A stretch of 64,000 nucleotides of DNA from SAR202 cluster bacterium (lineage in GTDB: Bacteria; Chloroflexota; Dehalococcoidia; Lucifugimonadales; UBA3495): contig JABMNL010000035.1 in assembly GCA_013204585.1 (NCBI GenBank), positions 10,803-74,802 of the forward strand, written 5' to 3'. The notes under the pieces were generated by a model, which saw only the letters and a program-made list of their open reading frames with translations, searched no databases and had not been told where the DNA came from. Positions 25,288 through 64,000 of the stretch are shown in pieces (positions within the stretch are counted from its first letter, which is position 1; every line of letters starts with the position of its first letter). Position numbers and translations under genes: made by a program.

Positions 25288-26448
25288 TTAGTCTCCTCCT
25301 GCCGGGGCATTCGCCGCTGCTTTGCGTTGGGCTTGCAACGCCTCCTGCCTGCTCCGAACCTGAGCCACCAACCGTGTGGAGCCGGTCATCCGCTTGTATA
25401 TCAAGTAGCCAACCACTAATAGAGCTGTTGACGACATGGCGGTGAGAGACCAGGCTGGCCATTCGTAGAACTGGTACACGGCGGTCATCACCACTGACAG
25501 GAAGGACATTGGCACCATTACTTTCCAGGCAAAGGCCATTAATTGGTCGATACGCAGCCGTGGGAAGGTACCCCGAATCCAGAAGATGACCATGATGACC
25601 ATGTAGACCTTGAACAGGAACCAGATGATTTCCCAGTTGCCAGACAGTCCAGGCCCGGACCAGCCACCGAAGAACAGGATTACGGTGAGCGCGGCAACGG
25701 CAAAGGTATTGATGTATTCAGCCAGGAAGAAGACCGACCAGTGGGCACCGCTGTATTCGACGAAAGGCCCGCCGACAATTTCAGACTCGGCGAAGTAAAT
25801 ATCAAAGGGTGTCCGGCCTACTTCCGCCAGCCCGGCGATGAAGAACAGTACCAGTCCCAAAGGCTGCACCAGCAAGAAAATGTATTCGTCTTGCGCGCTG
25901 ACTATCTCTCTTAAGTCCAGCGACTGGGCCAGCATGGCCACCGAGACTGCCACCATGATGATAGGTATCTCGTAGCTGATTAGTTGGGCCGCTGCCCTCA
26001 GTCCGCCCAGGGTTCCATATTTGTTGGCCGAACCCCAGCCCGCCAACACTAGGCCCAGAATGCCCACCACCGAGAAGGCGATGATGTAGAACAGCCCCAT
26101 ATTCAGGTTCTGTATCACCGCGCTCTGAGTGCCGGGGATGGTCACCCAAATCATGAACGCCGAAACAACAACTATGATGGGCGCAGCCCAGAAGATGGCC
26201 TTGTCCGACGAGGCCGGGATGATGTCTTCTTTGAGGATAAGTTTCAGGGCGTCGGCCACCGGCTGCATCAAGCCCATGGGGCCGGTGCGAGTGGGCCCCA
26301 AACGCAGTTGAAGCCGCCCCAGTACCTTGCGCTCCAGCCAGGTCAATGACAGCACCACAATGGACAGAGTGGTGAACATGACCAGCAGACCAACCACTAT
26401 CCAGATGAAATCAGACAGGGCTATTGTTAAGAGAATGGTGGCCGGCAT
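25288..26448 (-). CDS. nuoH: NADH-quinone oxidoreductase subunit H
   Basis: WLERKVLGRLQLRLGP, QPVADALKL, SYEIP and RGTFPRLRIDQL. The ATG at 26448 overlaps the nuoD stop, so the track's 26514 start is an overextension. Confidence 0.95.
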   Translation of the reverse strand: MPATILLTIALSDFIWIVVGLLVMFTTLSIVVLSLTWLERKVLGRLQLRLGPTRTGPMGLMQPVADALKLILKEDIIPASSDKAIFWAAPIIVVVSAFMIWVTIPGTQSAVIQNLNMGLFYIIAFSVVGILGLVLAGWGSANKYGTLGGLRAAAQLISYEIPIIMVAVSVAMLAQSLDLREIVSAQDEYIFLLVQPLGLVLFFIAGLAEVGRTPFDIYFAESEIVGGPFVEYSGAHWSVFFLAEYINTFAVAALTVILFFGGWSGPGLSGNWEIIWFLFKVYMVIMVIFWIRGTFPRLRIDQLMAFAWKVMVPMSFLSVVMTAVYQFYEWPAWSLTAMSSTALLVVGYLIYKRMTGSTRLVAQVRSRQEALQAQRKAAANAPAGGD

Positions 26449-27578
26449 TAGCGGTCCACCTCGCCCAGCACGATGTCCAACGCGCCGAGAATCACCACGC
26501 AATCGGCGATCCAACAGTCTTTCAACATGTGCTTCAACGCCGAAAGGTTGCAGAAAGAGGGTGGTCGCACTTTGACCCTATAGGGCTTGTCGCTGCCATC
26601 GCTAATCAGGTAAACGCCAATCTCCCCCCTCGGGTTCTCAGCCCGCACGTAGACCTCGCCAGCGGGTGGGCGGAGTAGTCGCCGTCCCAGGGATGACTCC
26701 ACGCTGCCTTCCGGCAATTGGTCCAGCGCTTGCTCGACGATTCGGATCGACTGGTAAATCTCTTGAACACGCAGGTAATACCGGTCCCAGCAATCGCCAT
26801 CTAAGCCTATCGGCACGTCAAAGTCGAGCCGGTCATAGACCGAGTACGGGGCGGCTTTTCTGACGTCGTAGTCCACGCCAGAAGCACGAAGACAAGGCCC
26901 GGTTAGCCCGTAGTCAATTGCGTCCTCAGCCGTCATTACTGCGATGCCCTTCAAACGGGCCAGGAATATTTCATTGAAACTGAGGAGTTTGTCCGACTCA
27001 TCGGTGTCCGCTTTTACCAGCTCTAATAATTCTCTAACCTGCGGGACGAAGTCGTCTGGCACATCTTCTTTCAAACCGCCGAACCGGAAGTAATTGTGCA
27101 TCATCCGGGCGCCGGAAACGGCCTCGAACAGGCCTTGGATGCGCTCCCTGCCCCGGAAACAAAACATGGAAGGAGTCATTGCGCCAGCGTCCAATCCCAT
27201 GGTGGCAATGAACAGCATGTGGCTGGCAATTCGGTTTAATTCGCAGAGGATGACTCGGATGTACTCGGAGCGTTCCGAGACCTCCAGTCCCATGAGCTTC
27301 TCAACCGCGCGACAGTAAATTTGCTCGTTGTTGAAGTTGGCAATGTAGTCCATGCGGTCAAACAGGGTGATGACCTGGTTGTACTGTTCGCCTTCGCACA
27401 GTTTTTCCGAACCCCGATGGAGATAGCCGATGTGAGGTTCCACATCCACTATCTTTTCCCCGTCCACCCACAGCACCATTCGAAAGACGCCATGAGTCGA
27501 GGGGTGCTGCGGTCCCATATTCAGCAGCATCTCGATTGGTTCGCCGTTACGGTTTGTTGTTTTTGAAACCTGGGCCAT
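26448..27578 (-). CDS. nuoD: NADH-quinone oxidoreductase subunit D
   Basis: NMGPQHPSTHGVFR, GYLHRG, DRMDY and DIVLGEVDR. Confidence 0.97.
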   Translation of the reverse strand: MAQVSKTTNRNGEPIEMLLNMGPQHPSTHGVFRMVLWVDGEKIVDVEPHIGYLHRGSEKLCEGEQYNQVITLFDRMDYIANFNNEQIYCRAVEKLMGLEVSERSEYIRVILCELNRIASHMLFIATMGLDAGAMTPSMFCFRGRERIQGLFEAVSGARMMHNYFRFGGLKEDVPDDFVPQVRELLELVKADTDESDKLLSFNEIFLARLKGIAVMTAEDAIDYGLTGPCLRASGVDYDVRKAAPYSVYDRLDFDVPIGLDGDCWDRYYLRVQEIYQSIRIVEQALDQLPEGSVESSLGRRLLRPPAGEVYVRAENPRGEIGVYLISDGSDKPYRVKVRPPSFCNLSALKHMLKDCWIADCVVILGALDIVLGEVDR

Positions 27579-27580
27579 TT

Positions 27581-27913
27581 TTATTCCGGTTGGCTGTCGA
27601 TTGGACGACCGATAAACCTGATTTTCGGCTCCTGGGGCGGCTCAACTTCACTACTCATCCAGACCTCGTCGTTGAAGTAAAAACCGGCATCAATCAGGGT
27701 CGCTTCCAAAACCCCCATCTTTTCGCAATCTTCTAGATATTCCGATACCTGGCGGCGCAGCGAATTTTTTGCATCTTCAGCCGTGTCGCCAAACCCGGTA
27801 ATTACCAACTCAGGACAAACCGCCTGGTAGCCAGTCCCGGCCTTGGACTCTTCAATCTGATAAACAATCCGGTCGAAAGGCGCTTTCTTCCCGCGCTTGG
27901 GTTTATTGGCCAC
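27581..27913 (-). CDS. HicB-like fold protein (orphan, inside the nuo operon)
   Basis: GYQAVCPELVITGFGDTAEDAKNSLRRQVSEYLE matches the HicB N-terminal pattern (Y-x-A-x-x-P-x-L...G-x-T-x-E-x-A). Confidence 0.6.
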   Translation of the reverse strand: MANKPKRGKKAPFDRIVYQIEESKAGTGYQAVCPELVITGFGDTAEDAKNSLRRQVSEYLEDCEKMGVLEATLIDAGFYFNDEVWMSSEVEPPQEPKIRFIGRPIDSQPE

Positions 27914-27925
27914 GTGCAGTTGCCT

Positions 27926-28207
27926 TTATTCGCCTTCGCCTTCAAACGATACGGCGGCTTCCATGAACTCCAATTGGACTTCAGTCTCTTCGTCAACGCC
28001 CAAATACCCGGCGTCGGCTAGGACTGCGGCCAACGTATCAGTGCCGTCGTGGGACTCAATCCAGGCCCGCATGATTTGTATCAGTTCATCCTGGGCGGCT
28101 TCCAGTGTTTCGCCTTCCCCTTCCAGGTTCAGGTCGTCGATACGAGCGACAACCCGGGCCTCATCACGGTCTATCTTGGCGGTCAAGACCACTGTCTCCA
28201 TAATCAT
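27926..28207 (-). CDS. HicB-like fold protein, paralog of the neighbouring gene
   Basis: VVARIDDLNLEGEGETLEAAQDELIQIMRAWIE. AGGAGG SD upstream. Shares an L-x-DAG-[YF] motif with 27581-27913. Confidence 0.55.
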   Translation of the reverse strand: MIMETVVLTAKIDRDEARVVARIDDLNLEGEGETLEAAQDELIQIMRAWIESHDGTDTLAAVLADAGYLGVDEETEVQLEFMEAAVSFEGEGE

Positions 28208-28219
28208 CTAGCCTCCTGG

Positions 28220-28831
28220 CTAAAACTCTTCATATTCATTGAACGGAAATTCCTTGCGCCCTGGGTACCCTTCGAACCCTTCATAGAGCAGCAGCGGCGA
28301 AAGGTCAGGATGGCCGTCGAAGCTAACGCCAAACAGGTCGTGGGCCTCGCGCTCATACCAATCTGCCGCCCGCCACACGGCAGTCACAGACGGAACGATG
28401 GCATCGGAGTATGGCACATTAGTCCGAAGAGCAAAGGTGCGCTCGGGCTCTAGGGACTGAAAAACGTAGACCATTTCAAAATATTCGGAATAGTCCACGC
28501 AGGACATACAAAGCAGCATTTTGGCCGCAATGCGCGGGTCGTCTTTGATTAGTTGACAGACTTGCCGGGTGTTTTGCTTCGCAACGCTGACCTGGGGGAT
28601 GTCGTCTAAAGCGCCAGCTTGAGGATCAAATTCTTTGAGAACCTCTAGCGAAACGTCCAGCAATTCTCGCCCTGCCGGGGTCAGTGCTGCCAGCGGGTCA
28701 GCGGGGGGGCCGTCGTCAGCATGGCCGTGGCCAGCAGCTGCCGGTTTTGCCGGGGCGTCCATTATAGGCTCCGGCGGGGCATCTTTTATAGGCTCCGCCG
28801 GGGCTTCGTGATTCTCTTCTTGCTCGGCCAT
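28220..28831 (-). CDS. nuoC: NADH-quinone oxidoreductase subunit C
   Basis: ADWYEREAHDLFGVSFDGHPDL and GYPGRKEFP, with an acidic/Pro-rich N-terminal extension. Confidence 0.92.
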   Translation of the reverse strand: MAEQEENHEAPAEPIKDAPPEPIMDAPAKPAAAGHGHADDGPPADPLAALTPAGRELLDVSLEVLKEFDPQAGALDDIPQVSVAKQNTRQVCQLIKDDPRIAAKMLLCMSCVDYSEYFEMVYVFQSLEPERTFALRTNVPYSDAIVPSVTAVWRAADWYEREAHDLFGVSFDGHPDLSPLLLYEGFEGYPGRKEFPFNEYEEF

Positions 28832-29370
28832 TATTTTTTGGCGTCGCGCATGATTTTTTCTTGGAGCTTTAGTATGCCAAACATCAGCGCTTCTGGCCGT
28901 GGTGGACAGCCCGGCACATAGACGTCAACGGGCACGATGTGGTCTACGCCCATCACCACCGAATACGAGCGGTAATAGGGACCGCCGTTGGTGGCGCAGC
29001 TTCCCATGGCAATAACCCACTTGGGCTCTGGCATTTGTTCGTAGAGCAGGCGAATGGGGTCGGCCATTTTCTTGACCACCGTGCCCGCCACAATCATCAC
29101 GTCCGACTGACGCGGCGACGGCCAAGTGACCACACCGAAGCGATCAAAATCGTAGTGGGCCATGTAGGTCGAAATCATCTCGATGGCGCAGCAGGCAAGG
29201 CCAAACGACAGGGTCCAAAGGGACGACTTACGTGCCATGGCAAATAATTGGTCGGTGGAGGTGGTAATAACCCCAGGCACTTTTCCAGCGGTGGCCTGGT
29301 CAAACAAACTGGAACCTGGAACGTTGCCCCGCCCGTCTGGCATCCCCGGCCCTACTATTATTTCTGCCAT
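28831..29370 (-). CDS. nuoB: NADH-quinone oxidoreductase subunit B
   Basis: [20 protein letters not shown] and [13 protein letters not shown]. Confidence 0.97.
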
Positions 29371-29780
29371 TCAAGGACCCCTTTCTTCCAGGCGTAAACA
29401 ATGGCGAAAAATAGCACTCCCAAGAACATCATCATAGCGTAGAAGGGAAGTGCGTTGGCCTCGTTTATCTTTTCTTGCATGAAAATCACCGCCCAAGGAA
29501 ACAAGAACACTGCTTCAACGTCAAAAATTAGGAACAAAATCGCGAAGATATAGAACCGTACGTTAATGTTGGACCAGGCATAAGGAGTGGGCGGGATACC
29601 ACATTCGTAAGTGGTGAATTTAGCTTCGGAGTAACGCCTGGCGGAGAGGACGCGCGAAGCGGAGAACATGCCACCAATTGCCAATGTGGCGACCACCGCG
29701 GAAATTGCAACCGCGGTCCAGTTCTCCGTGAACAGTTCTGGGTTAAATGCTTGAAGTATTATCGTGGGGAAAAAAGACAT
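29358..29780 (-). CDS. nuoA: NADH-quinone oxidoreductase subunit A
   Basis: [27 protein letters not shown] and [10 protein letters not shown]. Confidence 0.95.
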
Positions 29781-29820
29781 ACCACCGCAGTGTCCGAAGG
29801 GCGTCGGTGGACAGGTTGAC

Positions 29821-29871
29821 TTACACTCGAATTACGCTCGAAATATATCACTGGCCGCAGAGGGGTGTCAA
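29821..29871 (-). promoter_or_regulatory. nuo operon promoter with an adjacent 11-bp tandem repeat
   Basis: Minus strand TTGACA (29871-29866), 18 nt, TG-n-TATATT (29847-29842), followed by ttacactcgaa/ttacgctcgaa (29821-29842, plus-strand letters). Confidence 0.6.
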
Positions 29872-29950
29872 CGAAATTCGACGCCCGCCCGCAGGAGAAA
29901 TCAGTCGTCAAAATTCAGGTTCCCTTACTTGATAGACCGGTCAACATATG

Positions 29951-31099
29951 TCAGTTACCTTCGGCGGCCCTAAGTTGGGTTGATGAGACATCTTCCCTAA
30001 ACAGACTCTCGGGCACATCGCTGAACAGCGATTCGAATGCCGGGGGAATCAATACATCGCTCAACGTCTTGAAGGTGCCCTGGTCTTCTCTACCAGCAAC
30101 CAGGAACCTAGTTCCTCCGGCCCACATCTCCGCCAGAGCGGCCAACATGGCGACTTGGTTGTCTTCGAAACCGTCTCCGTAATACCTGGGGGCGACAATC
30201 CGAACGGCGGTGTCCCATCCGACAACAAAAGTCCGACCCGAGAAGAGTCTGGCTTTCTTGAAGAAAGTCTCAGCCCTGGTTAACACCACGGTCTCTTCTG
30301 GGGTGAACTGCGCCAGTCTTTTCAGTATCTCCGCCTCTTCCAGCGCTGGCTTATCAACGTTGGTTACCGATAGCTCAAAGCCTACTTCGGTACCCAACAC
30401 TTCCCTCGCCGCCTGTGCCAGACCTCGGTGCCCTTGATGCACTGGACTGAATGAGCCAGGCAGTAAAGCTCCGGGCGCAGTTCCTTCGACTTCCAAAACC
30501 CCAGCACGGGCAACAATCCAAGCGGCCTCGCCGGAGAGCAGTTGGGCTAATGGCGAGGGGTGTTCTGTCCGGTCAATCTCCAAAGAGTCGCCAGGAGTCA
30601 GGCCCAGTTCTACATCTGAATCCAGGCTCGACAGCAGCATCAGGGCATGGACCAAGAGTCGGCTGACCAACTCTTCTTCACCGGCCCGGTCTCGCAAACC
30701 TTTGTGCAGAATCAGCGAGTAGGTGGTACTGGAGTCTTGGTCCCAAGCGGATACAAAGGCCCGGTGCTCGCCGCGTTTGGGCCGGTCGGTGGCGATGGTG
30801 GCGGCACAGGCTAGGCCAACAGCAGGGGAGTCGTCTTCAAGTTGGGACTTGGCTTTGCGGTAGGCCGCTCTGGCCATGTCTTTGGCCGTCTGGGCCGACG
30901 CCGATTGTTCTGGCTCGAACCCCAGGAACGAGTTCATCGATTCCCGACCGTAGGGCACCAAAGCCTCCAACACGGTACGGGAAGCACCGGCAACTCCCAG
31001 CAGCCAAGCCACGGCTTGAGTGCCTGCGCCCGACACAGCAACCACCGCCTTGTGGGGCGTGGCGTGAATTTTTTCTATATGTGGTCGCATCTCTTCCAT
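29951..31099 (-). CDS. CinA-like domain fused to an HxGH nucleotidyltransferase (NMN adenylyltransferase-like)
   Basis: VSGAG...GASRTVLEALVPY...TDRPKRGEHR N-terminal domain, then PGSFSPVHQGH, NVDKP, VVGWDT and VSSTQLR. Confidence 0.7.
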   Translation of the reverse strand: MEEMRPHIEKIHATPHKAVVAVSGAGTQAVAWLLGVAGASRTVLEALVPYGRESMNSFLGFEPEQSASAQTAKDMARAAYRKAKSQLEDDSPAVGLACAATIATDRPKRGEHRAFVSAWDQDSSTTYSLILHKGLRDRAGEEELVSRLLVHALMLLSSLDSDVELGLTPGDSLEIDRTEHPSPLAQLLSGEAAWIVARAGVLEVEGTAPGALLPGSFSPVHQGHRGLAQAAREVLGTEVGFELSVTNVDKPALEEAEILKRLAQFTPEETVVLTRAETFFKKARLFSGRTFVVGWDTAVRIVAPRYYGDGFEDNQVAMLAALAEMWAGGTRFLVAGREDQGTFKTLSDVLIPPAFESLFSDVPESLFREDVSSTQLRAAEGN

Positions 31100-61452: not shown

Positions 61453-64000
61453 CTAGTCTATTTTGTTAATACGCGCCCTGCAGATATTAAGTCCCGGCAC
61501 CCGTGATGCGGGCTCCATGTCTTCGCTGTTTTGCAGGTCTATCGCCAACTGTCCGAAGAGCGAAGTGGAGGCGACAACCCCGATTGGAACGGACTCGTTA
61601 ATCCGGGCCAAACCGGCTAGCCTACCCGTGCCAATATTCATCGACATTTCAACCTGCACCTTGCCGCCATCCTCAATTGACCATGAGGCGGCGTCGGCGG
61701 GGTTCATCTCAACAAATTCATCTCGTTGGATGGTATTGCGGCGTCCTTTGACGATTTTAATTTCTCTTTCTTGCTGCAAGAGCACCCGTCCCGGCACGAA
61801 CCAGAGCGGGAAGTCGGCATTCGCCGCTTCTTCAACCACCGCAAAGGCCGGGGTAATGGGCTCGGCTCTGCGCTCTTTGAACCCGCCTTCGTAGAGAATT
61901 GGCGAACCCTTGCCGTCGCTCTGTATCGGCCATTGCAGTCCCCGTTCTTCTCGGCTGGCGTACAGCACCTGAGTCGGCTGGGGACTCTCCATTTGAGTTT
62001 TTAAAACAAGTCCGCCTTGACCCGCCAGTTTCCGGTAGGAAACCTCGGCGTAAATAGGCGCCACACGGGCTATCTCATCCATTGTCTCAGAGGGTGATGT
62101 TAGTAGAAAGCCTGGCGCTCCCATCTTGCGGGCCACCTCACAAATCACCCGCAACTCAGGGCGCGCGCCTCCCTCGGGTAGGCTCTTGCCAGGCTTGATC
62201 CGCTGAATACGCCGTTCGAGGTTGGTGTAGGTGCCGTCTTTTTCCGCGAAGGTCGCCCTGGGGAATACCACGTCGGCCCGTTGGGCTGTGGCGCTCAAGA
62301 AAGAGTCGCTGACCGCCAAGAATTCCAGGTTGTCCAGGGCGGCTAGTCCATCACCCAGCTTGCCATTACTGAAATTGGGGCTATCCCCAATAACGAATGC
62401 GGCCTTAACCCGACCGTTTGCGGCCCCTTCGATAATCTCGGCCAACCCTAATCCTGGAGCATCGGGGATAGATGAGTCCCAGATGGCTTCGACTTCTTGC
62501 CGATCTTTCGCGTTCGACACACTCCGGTATCCCGGCAATCGGTCGGGCACGCAGCCCACGTCCCAAGCGCCCTGCTCGTTGGCTCCGGCCCTCATGGGGT
62601 AGATACCCGCGCCTTCTTTGCCCAGGTTGCCGGTAACCAATGCCAGGTTAGTCAGGGATAAGACACAGCCTCGGGCCATTTCCGGCAGTATGTTGTCCAA
62701 AGCGTAGACCAGCGCTCCGGTTTCAGCTTCACCATACAGGCGTGCCGCTTCGGCGATGTCGGCAGCGGGAACCTGGGTCGCCACGGAGACTTCGTCCAAG
62801 TCGAGGGCGTTGAGGGCGTATTGAAGGGTAGCCGGGCTTTCGCAGTTCTCATTTAGCCAATCGTCGTCTTGGAATCCCTGGTCGATGACCGACTTGAGCA
62901 ACCCGCCCAGCAACAGCCGTTCGGTGCCCGGAGCGGGCCGCAGCCAAACATGGGCGTAGCGAGTCAGCTCCACTTCCCTGGAGTCAATGACTACCAACTT
63001 GGTGTTCTTACGGGCTGCTCGCTTGATTGGCACGCCCACCACGTTGTGTTCTTCAGTGACATTGCTACTGAATACTATGATGCAGCCGGCTTCTTCCAGG
63101 TCCCAGATGGGATTGGTGGCCCCGGCGTAACCCAATGACTGCTCCAGACCCCGGGTAAGTTCTGGCTGGGTGTTGGAGGTCTGGTCTACGTTGTTGGACT
63201 TCATGGCCGTTCGGGCAAACTTCTGGGCCAGGTAATGCTCTTCGTTGGTACTGTTCGGGGAGGTCAGGAAGGCGAAAGACTCGCCGGAATATTCAGCGAA
63301 ACGATTGGCCACGACTTCCAATGCTTCGTCCCAAGTCGCTGCCACTAATTCGCCGTCGCGACGCACCAGAGGAGTCTGCAACCTGCTGGCGTCGTTCACA
63401 AATTGCAGGCCAAATTTGCCCTTGAAGCAGGCTTGGCCGTGATTAGCCGGAGAATTGAACTCGGGAACGGCCCGGATTAGGACACCGTCATCATTGTACT
63501 CCACATTCATCTGGCAGCCGACGGGGCAGAGGGGACAGATAGTGCGCTCGACCTTGCGGGGTTTTTCCCACTTGTTGTCCCGCTCGACCAACGCGCCCAC
63601 GGGGCAAACGTCGATGCAGGCACCACAAAACTCGCAGCCCGACTCGAGAAGGGAGGTGCCAAACGAGGTGCCAACCAACGCTTGTCCGCTGCGCATGACG
63701 AACCCGATGGCATCGTCGCCCCGCAGTTCTTCGCAGGCGCGAACACAACGTCCGCAGACAATACAGAGGTTGTAGTCGCGGTCATAAAAGGGGTCGGCCA
63801 CTTCCAGGGGAATCTCCCGGTACTTGTAGTTCAGTGGCGATTCCAGGTTCATACCCAAATAGCGGACGGTGTCTTTTAGCTCACAACGCTCGTTCTTGGG
63901 ACAGGTGACGCAGCGGTCGTTGACCGAGACATGGCGCAGGCATACGTCGGTGGGGCCGCAGATGTCGATTCGGTGACAGGTGAGGCAGCCGCTGGGATGC
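61453..64000 (-). CDS. NuoG/FdhA-like Fe-S molybdopterin-fold protein (5' end beyond the window)
   Basis: The frame is open to the window edge (HPSGCLTCHR...CVTCPKNERCEL). It has CIVCGRCVRAC, CEFCGACIDVCP and CPLCPVGC...C motifs and a MopB-fold body. Confidence 0.85.
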   Translation of the reverse strand, partial: HPSGCLTCHRIDICGPTDVCLRHVSVNDRCVTCPKNERCELKDTVRYLGMNLESPLNYKYREIPLEVADPFYDRDYNLCIVCGRCVRACEELRGDDAIGFVMRSGQALVGTSFGTSLLESGCEFCGACIDVCPVGALVERDNKWEKPRKVERTICPLCPVGCQMNVEYNDDGVLIRAVPEFNSPANHGQACFKGKFGLQFVNDASRLQTPLVRRDGELVAATWDEALEVVANRFAEYSGESFAFLTSPNSTNEEHYLAQKFARTAMKSNNVDQTSNTQPELTRGLEQSLGYAGATNPIWDLEEAGCIIVFSSNVTEEHNVVGVPIKRAARKNTKLVVIDSREVELTRYAHVWLRPAPGTERLLLGGLLKSVIDQGFQDDDWLNENCESPATLQYALNALDLDEVSVATQVPAADIAEAARLYGEAETGALVYALDNILPEMARGCVLSLTNLALVTGNLGKEGAGIYPMRAGANEQGAWDVGCVPDRLPGYRSVSNAKDRQEVEAIWDSSIPDAPGLGLAEIIEGAANGRVKAAFVIGDSPNFSNGKLGDGLAALDNLEFLAVSDSFLSATAQRADVVFPRATFAEKDGTYTNLERRIQRIKPGKSLPEGGARPELRVICEVARKMGAPGFLLTSPSETMDEIARVAPIYAEVSYRKLAGQGGLVLKTQMESPQPTQVLYASREERGLQWPIQSDGKGSPILYEGGFKERRAEPITPAFAVVEEAANADFPLWFVPGRVLLQQEREIKIVKGRRNTIQRDEFVEMNPADAASWSIEDGGKVQVEMSMNIGTGRLAGLARINESVPIGVVASTSLFGQLAIDLQNSEDMEPASRVPGLNICRARINKID

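What the first reader, a model, noticed from the sequence alone, without database searches (positions are those of the whole stretch)
27581..28207. Two toxin-less HicB-fold paralogs embedded in the complex I operon
Seen: two small acidic ORFs (93 and 110 aa) sit between nuoC and nuoD with gaps of only 12, 12 and 2 nt, and the first has a strong SD. I see no terminal repeats, transposase or marked composition shift. Both show a HicB-like beta-beta-alpha pattern (A-x-x-x-x-L-x-x-x-G-x-G-[DE]-T-x-E-x-A) followed by a shared L-x-x-x-L-x-DAG-[YF] motif. Known: HicB antitoxins normally pair with a HicA RNase, and nuoC and nuoD are normally adjacent or fused. No HicA-like ORF is present in this window, and neither protein has an obvious C-terminal HTH/RHH. 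Inference: these may be domesticated HicB-fold proteins acting as a heterodimeric accessory, assembly or regulatory factor of this NuoEFG-less complex I, rather than a TA module. This is the best candidate for an undescribed system in the window.
Basis: partly seen in the sequence, partly recalled or inferred. Interest (0 to 1): 0.75.

Follow-up and report, generated by a model that had tools for sequence, protein, structure and literature searches.

The report
Toxin-less HicB antitoxin pair in nuo operon
Two small acidic genes between nuoC and nuoD are leftovers of a toxin-antitoxin cassette: the toxin is gone, but both antidote-type genes have been kept under selection across several SAR202-type Dehalococcoidia families, so they probably have a new, still unknown job.

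Summary
XA (27926-28207, 93 aa) and XB (27581-27913, 110 aa) lie on the minus strand between nuoC and nuoD, with gaps of 12, 12 and 2 nt and an AGGAGG before XA.

Both have a short HicB/UPF0150-type fold and no DNA-binding domain. Their origin can be traced. In sister families of the same order, an XB-like gene (Xh) sits at this same junction, followed by a HicA toxin gene. The Xh-HicA pair also occurs outside nuo operons in many other phyla.

In the window's clade (5 families) no locus has HicA. XA is present in 36 of 38 genomes and in all 73 metagenome loci, always directly after nuoC. XB is found only in the window's family. Within the genus, dN/dS is about 0.10-0.15, similar to nuoC. The 81 family genomes sampled hold no cognate HicA elsewhere.

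This is therefore a domesticated antitoxin pair, not a working toxin-antitoxin module. A role with complex I is plausible but unproven. Two lineages lost the pair and kept the operon, so it is dispensable. The "NuoEFG-less" claim is true only of the operon: a nuoE/F/G-like cluster lies about 33 kb away, and the genome has a second nuo operon.

The parts
29842..29871 (-). promoter-like site upstream of nuoA (TTGACA-18-TATATT with TG, 11 of 12 matches)
   Evidence: This is a consensus match only. It is the only strong site in 26300-30100, which fits one transcript covering nuoA to nuoD.
29358..29780 (-). nuoA
   Evidence: conserved synteny.
28831..29370 (-). nuoB
28220..28831 (-). nuoC (Complex1_30kDa, E 1.5e-35)
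28208..28219 (-). 12-nt spacer between nuoC and XA holding the AGGAGG Shine-Dalgarno site
   Evidence: The gap between the nuoC stop and the XA start is 3-12 nt in most related loci.
27926..28207 (-). XA: 93 aa, net charge -20, pI 4.05, short HicB/UPF0150-fold protein arranged b-b-b-a-a-b
   Evidence: Pfam UPF0150 E 0.012, below cut-off. AlphaFold2 model with pLDDT 81. Best PDB fold matches are 3k6q (putative antitoxin), 6g26/6g1c (HicB) and 2yzt. hhalign to the HicA-linked Xh: probability 97.9. Forms one clade with 99% support. dN/dS 0.10-0.135.
27581..27913 (-). XB: 110 aa, ortholog-like relative of the Xh antitoxin, with invariant C33 and C63 and a conserved C-terminal tail (W85, S87, P92, P96) that is modelled with low confidence
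   Evidence: hhalign to Xh: probability 99.4, E 1e-21, 36% identity. Model pLDDT 73; local fit to 2yzt and 3k6q at rmsd 1.4-2.1 A. Invariant columns. dN/dS 0.13-0.15. Forms one clade with 100% support.
26448..27578 (-). nuoD (Complex1_49kDa, E 1.6e-96); its start lies 2 nt after the XB stop
61453..64000 (-). nuoG-like gene, cut by the window end; nuoF-like and nuoE-like genes follow on the contig. Not part of the finding, but relevant to the 'NuoEFG-less' claim.
   Evidence: C24 72255-77384.

Best explanation
XA and XB descend from the antitoxin of a short-HicB/HicA toxin-antitoxin cassette (called Xh-HicA here). That cassette lodged between nuoC and nuoD of one of the two nuo operons in SAR202-type Dehalococcoidia. 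In the window's clade the HicA toxin gene is gone. XA became fixed in the ancestor of about five families, and XB, the closer relative of Xh, was added in the window's family. Both genes appear to be transcribed with nuoA-D and are probably translationally coupled: the gaps are 12, 12 and 2 nt here, and 4-nt overlaps occur in relatives. Each encodes only the toxin-binding HicB N-domain fold, without a DNA-binding domain, and both are very acidic. Each lineage shows a long stem branch followed by strong purifying selection, which is the pattern expected when a gene shifts to a new function. My inference is that they now act as small binding proteins with a new partner, possibly as an XA-XB pair, produced together with the Q-module subunits NuoB/C/D. 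A dispensable accessory, assembly or regulatory role for this complex I is the leading candidate. Shown: TA origin, loss of the toxin, fold, synteny, selection and dispensability. Inferred: the heterodimer, the new partner and any link to complex I. My confidence in the origin and domestication is about 0.85-0.9; in the link to complex I, about 0.35-0.4.
For: Origin. An XB-like Xh sits between nuoC and nuoD and is followed by a HicA_toxin gene (PF07927, E 3e-8 to 2e-5) in families f55, f23, f12, f21, f32 and f39. The same Xh-HicA pair occurs outside nuo operons in Nitrospirota, Brocadiales, ANME-1, Bacillota and others and in other orders of the class. Free Xh proteins give weak hits to UPF0150 and HicB_lk_antitox. 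The family comprises 3,732 clusters. Homology. Fold. Fixation. On the NuoB+NuoC tree, clade I (support 100) has XA in 36 of 38 genomes, and XB appears only within f1. All 73 metagenome loci read nuoC-XA(-XB)-nuoD, without HicA. There is one copy per genome. Selection. dN/dS is 0.10-0.135 for XA and 0.13-0.15 for XB, against 0.11-0.12 for nuoC. Stem branches are long, 0.92 and 0.89. No toxin. All six HicA genes in the genome have their own adjacent HicB. The best match to the nuo-type HicA is 34% identical. In 81 family genomes the best hit scores 36.9 bits, and 49 genomes have no hit. Operon. Tight junctions and no internal promoter or terminator signals. The invariant XB tail is modelled with low confidence, as expected for a partner-binding segment.
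Against: Nothing shows a physical or functional link to complex I apart from gene position. Of 40 orthologous operons from families without an X hit, 35 have nuoC and nuoD directly adjacent. G023 (f1, 1.5-Mb genome) and G096 (f61) lost XA/XB yet kept the operon, so the pair is not needed for the enzyme. This junction is a general landing site for cargo: TumE/TumA, an IS630-like transposase and other ORFs are also found there. Position alone is therefore weak evidence. dS is near saturation (1.1-1.5), so the dN/dS values are rough. The fold-search E-values are not significant on their own: 0.035 for XA and above 0.27 for XB. No expression data were found.
Confidence: 0.5

Rival explanations
1. 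Orphan-antitoxin immunity (anti-addiction). XA and XB still bind HicA-type toxins. They protect the cell from Xh-HicA cassettes that circulate at this junction among relatives, or from phage or plasmid HicA. Placement in the nuo operon simply gives them steady expression.
For: Intact Xh-HicA cassettes are patchily distributed at the same junction in sister families, needing 10-14 state changes on the host tree. Duplicated nuoC 3' ends between cargo units suggest exchange anchored on nuo flanks. XB keeps the family's core residues, including both Cys. XA and XB are acidic while HicA is basic: net charge -20 and -6 against +11. Orphan antitoxins are a recognised category (papers listed).
Against: No HicA was seen at this junction in any of 111 clade-I loci. 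Of 81 family genomes, 49 have no HicA detectable with the cognate profile. Long stems followed by housekeeping-like conservation, near-universal single-copy retention and no copies at other loci are not typical of episodic defence selection. There are no PADLOC hits.
Confidence: 0.2
2. Exapted for a function unrelated to complex I. For example, XA/XB could sequester another basic RNA-binding protein or RNase, or bind RNA, with output tied to nuo transcription only because of where the genes happen to sit.
For: The HicB N-domain is an RNase H/dsRBD-like fold whose ancestral partner is an RNA-binding toxin. The XB model gives weak local matches to dsRBDs and to YfiA. The pair is strongly acidic. 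It is dispensable for the operon.
Against: The structural matches are not significant. XA has never been found anywhere except directly after nuoC. No candidate partner has been identified.
Confidence: 0.17
3. Functionless remnant or purely cis-acting spacer. The ORFs persist only because deleting them would disturb translational coupling of nuoC and nuoD.
For: The junctions are tight or overlapping. In clade II, Xh without HicA shows decay, for example the truncated L055 and the altered C-terminus in L049.
Against: Amino-acid-level purifying selection matches that on nuoC. Columns are invariant across families. Clean deletions that leave nuoC and nuoD adjacent do occur (G023, G096), so removal is possible.
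Confidence: 0.08
4. Still a toxin-antitoxin module, with an unrecognised toxin: either XB itself or a distant gene.
For: It is a two-gene cassette of TA ancestry. In L053 and L055, Xh is followed not by HicA but by a homologous unknown ORF of 153-171 aa, so partner swaps do happen.
Against: Both proteins have the antitoxin fold. No toxin-family hit was found. XA occurs alone in three families. No cognate HicA exists in trans.
Confidence: 0.05

Closest known systems
Short, single-domain HicB antitoxins of HicAB type II toxin-antitoxin systems (Pfam UPF0150 PF21748 and HicB_lk_antitox PF15919; structures 2yzt, 3k6q and the HicB N-domain 6g1c/6g26)
   Same: The same b-b-b-a core with the G-x-G-[DE]-T-x-E-x-A turn and helix. 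XB is 36% identical at profile level to Xh proteins that sit directly upstream of HicA. The proteins are acidic, like an antitoxin facing a basic toxin.
   Different: No HicA in cis, and no cognate HicA in trans. No DNA-binding domain. Two diverged copies lie in tandem. Inheritance inside a respiratory operon has been vertical across families, and selection is at housekeeping level. The Pfam scores fall below the curated cut-offs.
Orphan (solitary) antitoxins and the anti-addiction idea
   Same: An antitoxin homolog retained without its toxin (papers listed; the anti-addiction concept is from my own knowledge).
   Different: Orphan antitoxins are usually strain-variable. Here the genes are fixed, single-copy, syntenic across about five families and evolve as slowly as nuoC.
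Extra ORFs and lineage-specific subunits of complex I (URFs in the nqo/nuo clusters of Paracoccus and Rhodobacter; Nqo15/16 of Thermus; NuoX/NuoY of Campylobacter; the small Ndh subunits of cyanobacteria). These comparisons are from my own knowledge and were not tested here.
   Same: Small, lineage-specific genes embedded in or associated with a nuo operon.
   Different: None of these is known to derive from a toxin-antitoxin antitoxin. For XA and XB, association with the enzyme has not been shown, and the operon exists without them in close relatives.

Membership tests
HicB antitoxin (HicAB type II TA) | HicB/UPF0150 N-domain fold (three-stranded sheet plus helix, partial RNase H-like) | tested here: met
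   The models show b-b-b-a-a-b, with pLDDT 81 for XA and 73 for XB. The best PDB matches for XA are 3k6q, 6g26/6g1c and 2yzt. The XB core fits 2yzt and 3k6q at rmsd 1.4-2.1 A. E-values are weak, so the case rests on fold and profile homology together.
HicB antitoxin (HicAB type II TA) | Score above the curated cut-off of a HicB-type family model | tested here: not met
   XA scores 16 bits on PF21748 against a cut-off of 27.3. XB has no hit. There are no NCBIfam hits. Free Xh relatives score 19-22 bits on PF21748 and PF15919.
HicB antitoxin (HicAB type II TA) | Adjacent cognate HicA toxin gene | tested here: not met
   No HicA in the window or in any of 111 clade-I loci. The feature is met by the homologous Xh in sister families and in other phyla.
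HicB antitoxin (HicAB type II TA) | C-terminal RHH/HTH DNA-binding domain for autoregulation (present in long HicB, absent in short forms) | tested here: not met
   After helix 1 there is only a short helix and one or two strands.
HicB antitoxin (HicAB type II TA) | Neutralises HicA | not testable with these tools
   This needs co-expression of XA or XB with the clade-II HicA.
Complex I subunit or assembly factor | Encoded within and co-expressed with the nuo operon | tested here: met
   The genes lie between nuoC and nuoD, with tight junctions and no internal signals. Co-expression is inferred from this layout; no RNA data were found.
Complex I subunit or assembly factor | Present wherever the orthologous enzyme is present | tested here: not met
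   Absent from 35 of the 40 orthologous operons sampled from families without an X hit, and lost in G023 and G096 within clade I.
Complex I subunit or assembly factor | Physical association with Nuo subunits | not testable with these tools
Complexome profiling or pull-downs are needed.
Orphan antitoxin (anti-addiction) | Antitoxin homolog without a cognate toxin in the genome | tested here: met
Orphan antitoxin (anti-addiction) | Cross-neutralises incoming toxins of the family | not testable with these tools
   Requires an experiment.

The most novel reading that the evidence does not exclude
XA and XB are true lineage-specific partners of the SAR202 type-1 complex I, either supernumerary subunits or assembly chaperones of the NuoB/C/D/I Q-module. 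They would be descended from a toxin-antitoxin antitoxin whose toxin-binding surface was re-used to bind a respiratory subunit. To my knowledge this would be the first case of an antitoxin recruited into a respiratory enzyme.
Probability: 0.25. Interest if true: 0.8.

Novelty: new variant of a known kind. Interest (0 to 1): 0.55.

Why it matters
This case follows a selfish toxin-antitoxin cassette through to a fixed host gene pair, and the intermediate stages are still visible in living relatives: the free Xh-HicA module, Xh-HicA inside the nuo operon, Xh alone and decaying, and XA/XB fixed and conserved. SAR202 bacteria are abundant in the deep ocean and have only recently been cultured (PMC10444878), so the question can now be tested. 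If the pair acts on complex I, it would add a new kind of accessory factor to a heavily studied enzyme. If it acts as anti-HicA immunity, it would be an unusually stable example of an anti-addiction gene. In either case, annotation pipelines should not label these genes as a toxin-antitoxin system.

Tried and rejected
1. Direct family searches gave little. Pfam returned only a weak UPF0150 hit for XA and nothing for XB. NCBIfam and PADLOC returned nothing. A PDB sequence-profile search with the XB alignment returned nothing.

2. XB as a recent duplicate of XA was rejected. XB is far closer to the HicA-linked Xh than to XA, and XA and XB form separate long-stem clades.

3. A cognate HicA elsewhere in the genome was rejected.

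4. A sporadic insertion was rejected for clade I, but the description does fit the Xh +/- HicA state in clade II.

5. The insertion as an order-wide feature was rejected. Most families without an X hit have nuoC and nuoD adjacent.

6. Xh on known plasmids or phages: no tblastn match. Mobility is therefore inferred only from the patchy distribution across phyla.

7. Expression evidence: no RNA runs hold the region. The only full holder is a freshwater metagenome DNA run, probably the source sample.

8. The search for related loci failed with the mixed XB+Xh alignment because no stretch was conserved enough. I repeated it with Xh alone.

9. Literature searches for HicB or antitoxin genes in nuo operons, or in SAR202, found nothing relevant.

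Full report
**Observation**

The minus strand of the window carries nuoA (29358-29780), nuoB (28831-29370), nuoC (28220-28831), XA (27926-28207, 93 aa), XB (27581-27913, 110 aa, GTG start), nuoD (26448-27578) and then nuoH, I, J and K. The gaps are 12, 12 and 2 nt, and AGGAGG lies five nt before the XA start. XA and XB are homologous: BLASTP E 1e-5 and hhalign probability 96.7. GC content is 55% for XA and 52% for XB, against 55-56% in the flanking genes. The only strong promoter-like site lies upstream of nuoA, and no internal promoter or terminator exceeds chance.

**Fold**

The AlphaFold2 model of XA (pLDDT 81) has strands at 5-14, 19-23 and 28-32, helices at 35-54 and 59-65, and a strand at 76-83. 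Its best PDB matches are the putative antitoxin 3k6q (probability 0.99, E 0.035), HicB of Burkholderia pseudomallei (6g26, 6g1c) and the UPF0150 protein 2yzt.

The XB model (pLDDT 73) has the same core. It fits 2yzt and 3k6q locally at rmsd 1.4-2.1 A, but its E-values are above 0.27. Neither protein has an RHH or HTH domain. Pfam sees only a sub-threshold UPF0150 hit for XA and nothing for XB.

**Distribution and the key result**

XA is a single-copy gene in 16 of 19 other genomes of the genus (the three genomes without a hit are 62-78% complete) and in 16 of 17 other genera of the family. In every hit locus whose flanks were fetched, it lies in the order nuoA-B-C-XA-XB-D-H-I.

A profile search of 301 genomes of the order gave strong hits in five families and weak hits in several others. 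The weak hits also lie between nuoC and nuoD. In families f55, f23, f12 and f21, the single 88-aa gene there (called Xh here) is XB-like, with the same two cysteines. It is followed by an ORF of about 82 aa that matches HicA_toxin PF07927 (E 3e-8 to 2e-5; three of four are above the cut-off) and has an invariant G-D-H motif.

A scan of 185,579 species genomes with the Xh profile found the Xh-HicA pair in Nitrospirota, Brocadiales, ANME-1, Methanosarcinales, Bacillota, Acidobacteriota and other groups. There it is not next to nuo genes. In Dehalococcoidia, SAR202 and Chloroflexota MAGs it sits between nuoC and nuoD, with or without HicA. In other orders of the class, Xh-HicA is again outside nuo operons.

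Free Xh proteins give weak hits to both UPF0150 and HicB_lk_antitox. The XB/Xh profile finds 3,732 clusters at 50% identity. hhalign gives XB-Xh probability 99.4, E 1e-21, 36% identity, and XA-Xh probability 97.9, E 6e-13, 23% identity.

XA and XB therefore descend from the antitoxin of a real, widespread short-HicB/HicA module.

**History**

A NuoB+NuoC tree of 102 loci splits the order's type-1 operons into two clades.
- Clade I (support 100; families f1, f5, f14, f51 and f61) has XA in 36 of 38 genomes. XB occurs only within f1, in 27 genomes. The exceptions are G023, a 1.5-Mb genome in f1, and G096 in f61, where nuoC and nuoD are 28 and 5 nt apart.
- Clade II has Xh-HicA in 16 loci, Xh alone in 15 and no insert in 33. 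The pattern is patchy even within a genus and needs 10-14 state changes.

In the tree of X proteins, XA forms one clade (support 99) and XB forms one clade (support 100). Each sits on a long stem, 0.92 and 0.89. The nuo-embedded Xh sequences are not monophyletic.

All 73 metagenome contigs that encode an XA-type protein read nuoC-XA(-XB)-nuoD. None has HicA, and none is in a non-nuo context.

**Selection and the missing toxin**

Within the genus, NG86 dN/dS is 0.10-0.135 for XA and 0.13-0.15 for XB, against 0.11-0.12 for nuoC and 0.06 for nuoD. dS is 1.1-1.5, so these values are approximate.

The genome has six HicA genes, each with its own adjacent HicB. None resembles the nuo-type HicA by more than 34% identity. 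In 81 genomes of the family, the nuo-type HicA profile scores at most 36.9 bits, and 49 genomes have no hit.

**Interpretation**

The following points are shown by the data:
- TA ancestry;
- loss of the toxin;
- tandem retention of two diverged antitoxin-fold genes inside the operon;
- tight coupling to nuoC and nuoD;
- purifying selection as strong as on nuoC;
- dispensability in two lineages.

The long stems followed by conservation, and the invariant XB tail (W85, S87, P92, P96) that is modelled with low confidence, point to a changed binding partner.

I consider a dispensable accessory, assembly or regulatory role at complex I the most likely single function, at about 0.35-0.4. The main rivals are anti-HicA immunity (0.2) and a function unrelated to complex I (0.17). 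Gene position is weak evidence, because this junction is a general cargo site:
- TumE/TumA cassettes (PF20126, NF045776);
- an IS630-like transposase;
- a lipoprotein gene;
- an unknown 153-171-aa ORF that replaces HicA after Xh;
- 61-68-nt duplicates of the nuoC 3' end between cargo units.

The genome is not NuoEFG-less. A nuoE/F/G-like cluster lies at C24 72255-77384, and its nuoG-like gene covers window 61453-64000. A second nuoABCDHIJKLMN operon without any insert lies on contig C30.

**Earlier notes of this scan**

Earlier notes describe the same pair in three other genomes and also read it as a domesticated HicB pair. I treated those notes as leads. My survey agrees on domestication. It adds the HicA-bearing intermediates, the losses and the cargo-hotspot context, which weaken the claim that the pair is found "in every related locus".

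**Novelty**

I found no paper that describes HicB-type genes in nuo operons. Orphan antitoxins as a category are already known. I rate this a new variant of a known kind.

Noticed in passing
L052:3372-4033; also L055:4251-4944 and L062:3078-3846: A TumE toxin gene (PF20126, E 4e-17) and a TumA-like partner (NF045776, E 1e-6) are inserted in the same nuoC-nuoD gap, next to Xh, in three clade-II genomes. The junction collects TA cassettes.
   Followed up: partly
L053:4419-4880 and L055:3518-4033: Two homologous unknown ORFs of 153 and 171 aa (36% identity, E 3e-25; no Pfam or NCBIfam hit) follow Xh in the position where HicA normally sits. This may be a swapped toxin partner.
   Followed up: partly
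L049:3880-3948 and L062:3916-3976: Copies of the nuoC 3' end, 61-68 nt long and 90-98% identical to the resident end, lie between successive cargo units. This would be expected if cassettes enter by recombination anchored on nuo flanks.
   Followed up: partly
L053:4877-6101: IS630-like transposase ORFs lie between Xh and nuoD, inside the operon.
   Followed up: no
own genome, contig C30 7678-18648 (minus strand): A second nuoABCDHIJKLMN operon (NuoD 49% identical to the window's) has a 212-nt nuoC-nuoD gap and no X gene. Most genomes of the order have both operon types.
   Followed up: partly
window 61453-64000 and beyond (C24 72255-77384): A nuoG-like gene (960 aa), a nuoF-like gene (580 aa, Complex1_51K E 1e-40) and a nuoE-like gene (159 aa) form a cluster on the same strand, about 33 kb upstream of nuoA.
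   Followed up: partly
own genome C26, C27, C30, C31, C46: Six canonical hicA genes, each paired with its own hicB, in both gene orders.
   Followed up: yes
L057:4341-4742: A 133-aa ORF with a predicted membrane segment lies between XA and nuoD in an f14 genome.
   Followed up: no
L046 (G300, family f7, 3.1-kb contig): An XA-XB locus that is nearly identical in XB to an f1 genome (L028) appears in a genome assigned to another family and rated 7% contaminated. The contig is probably mis-binned.
   Followed up: no
window 27914-27928: XA and XB share a reading frame and are separated only by TAA plus four codons, so read-through of the stop would produce a 208-aa fusion. In relatives the two genes more often overlap by 4 nt.
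   Followed up: no
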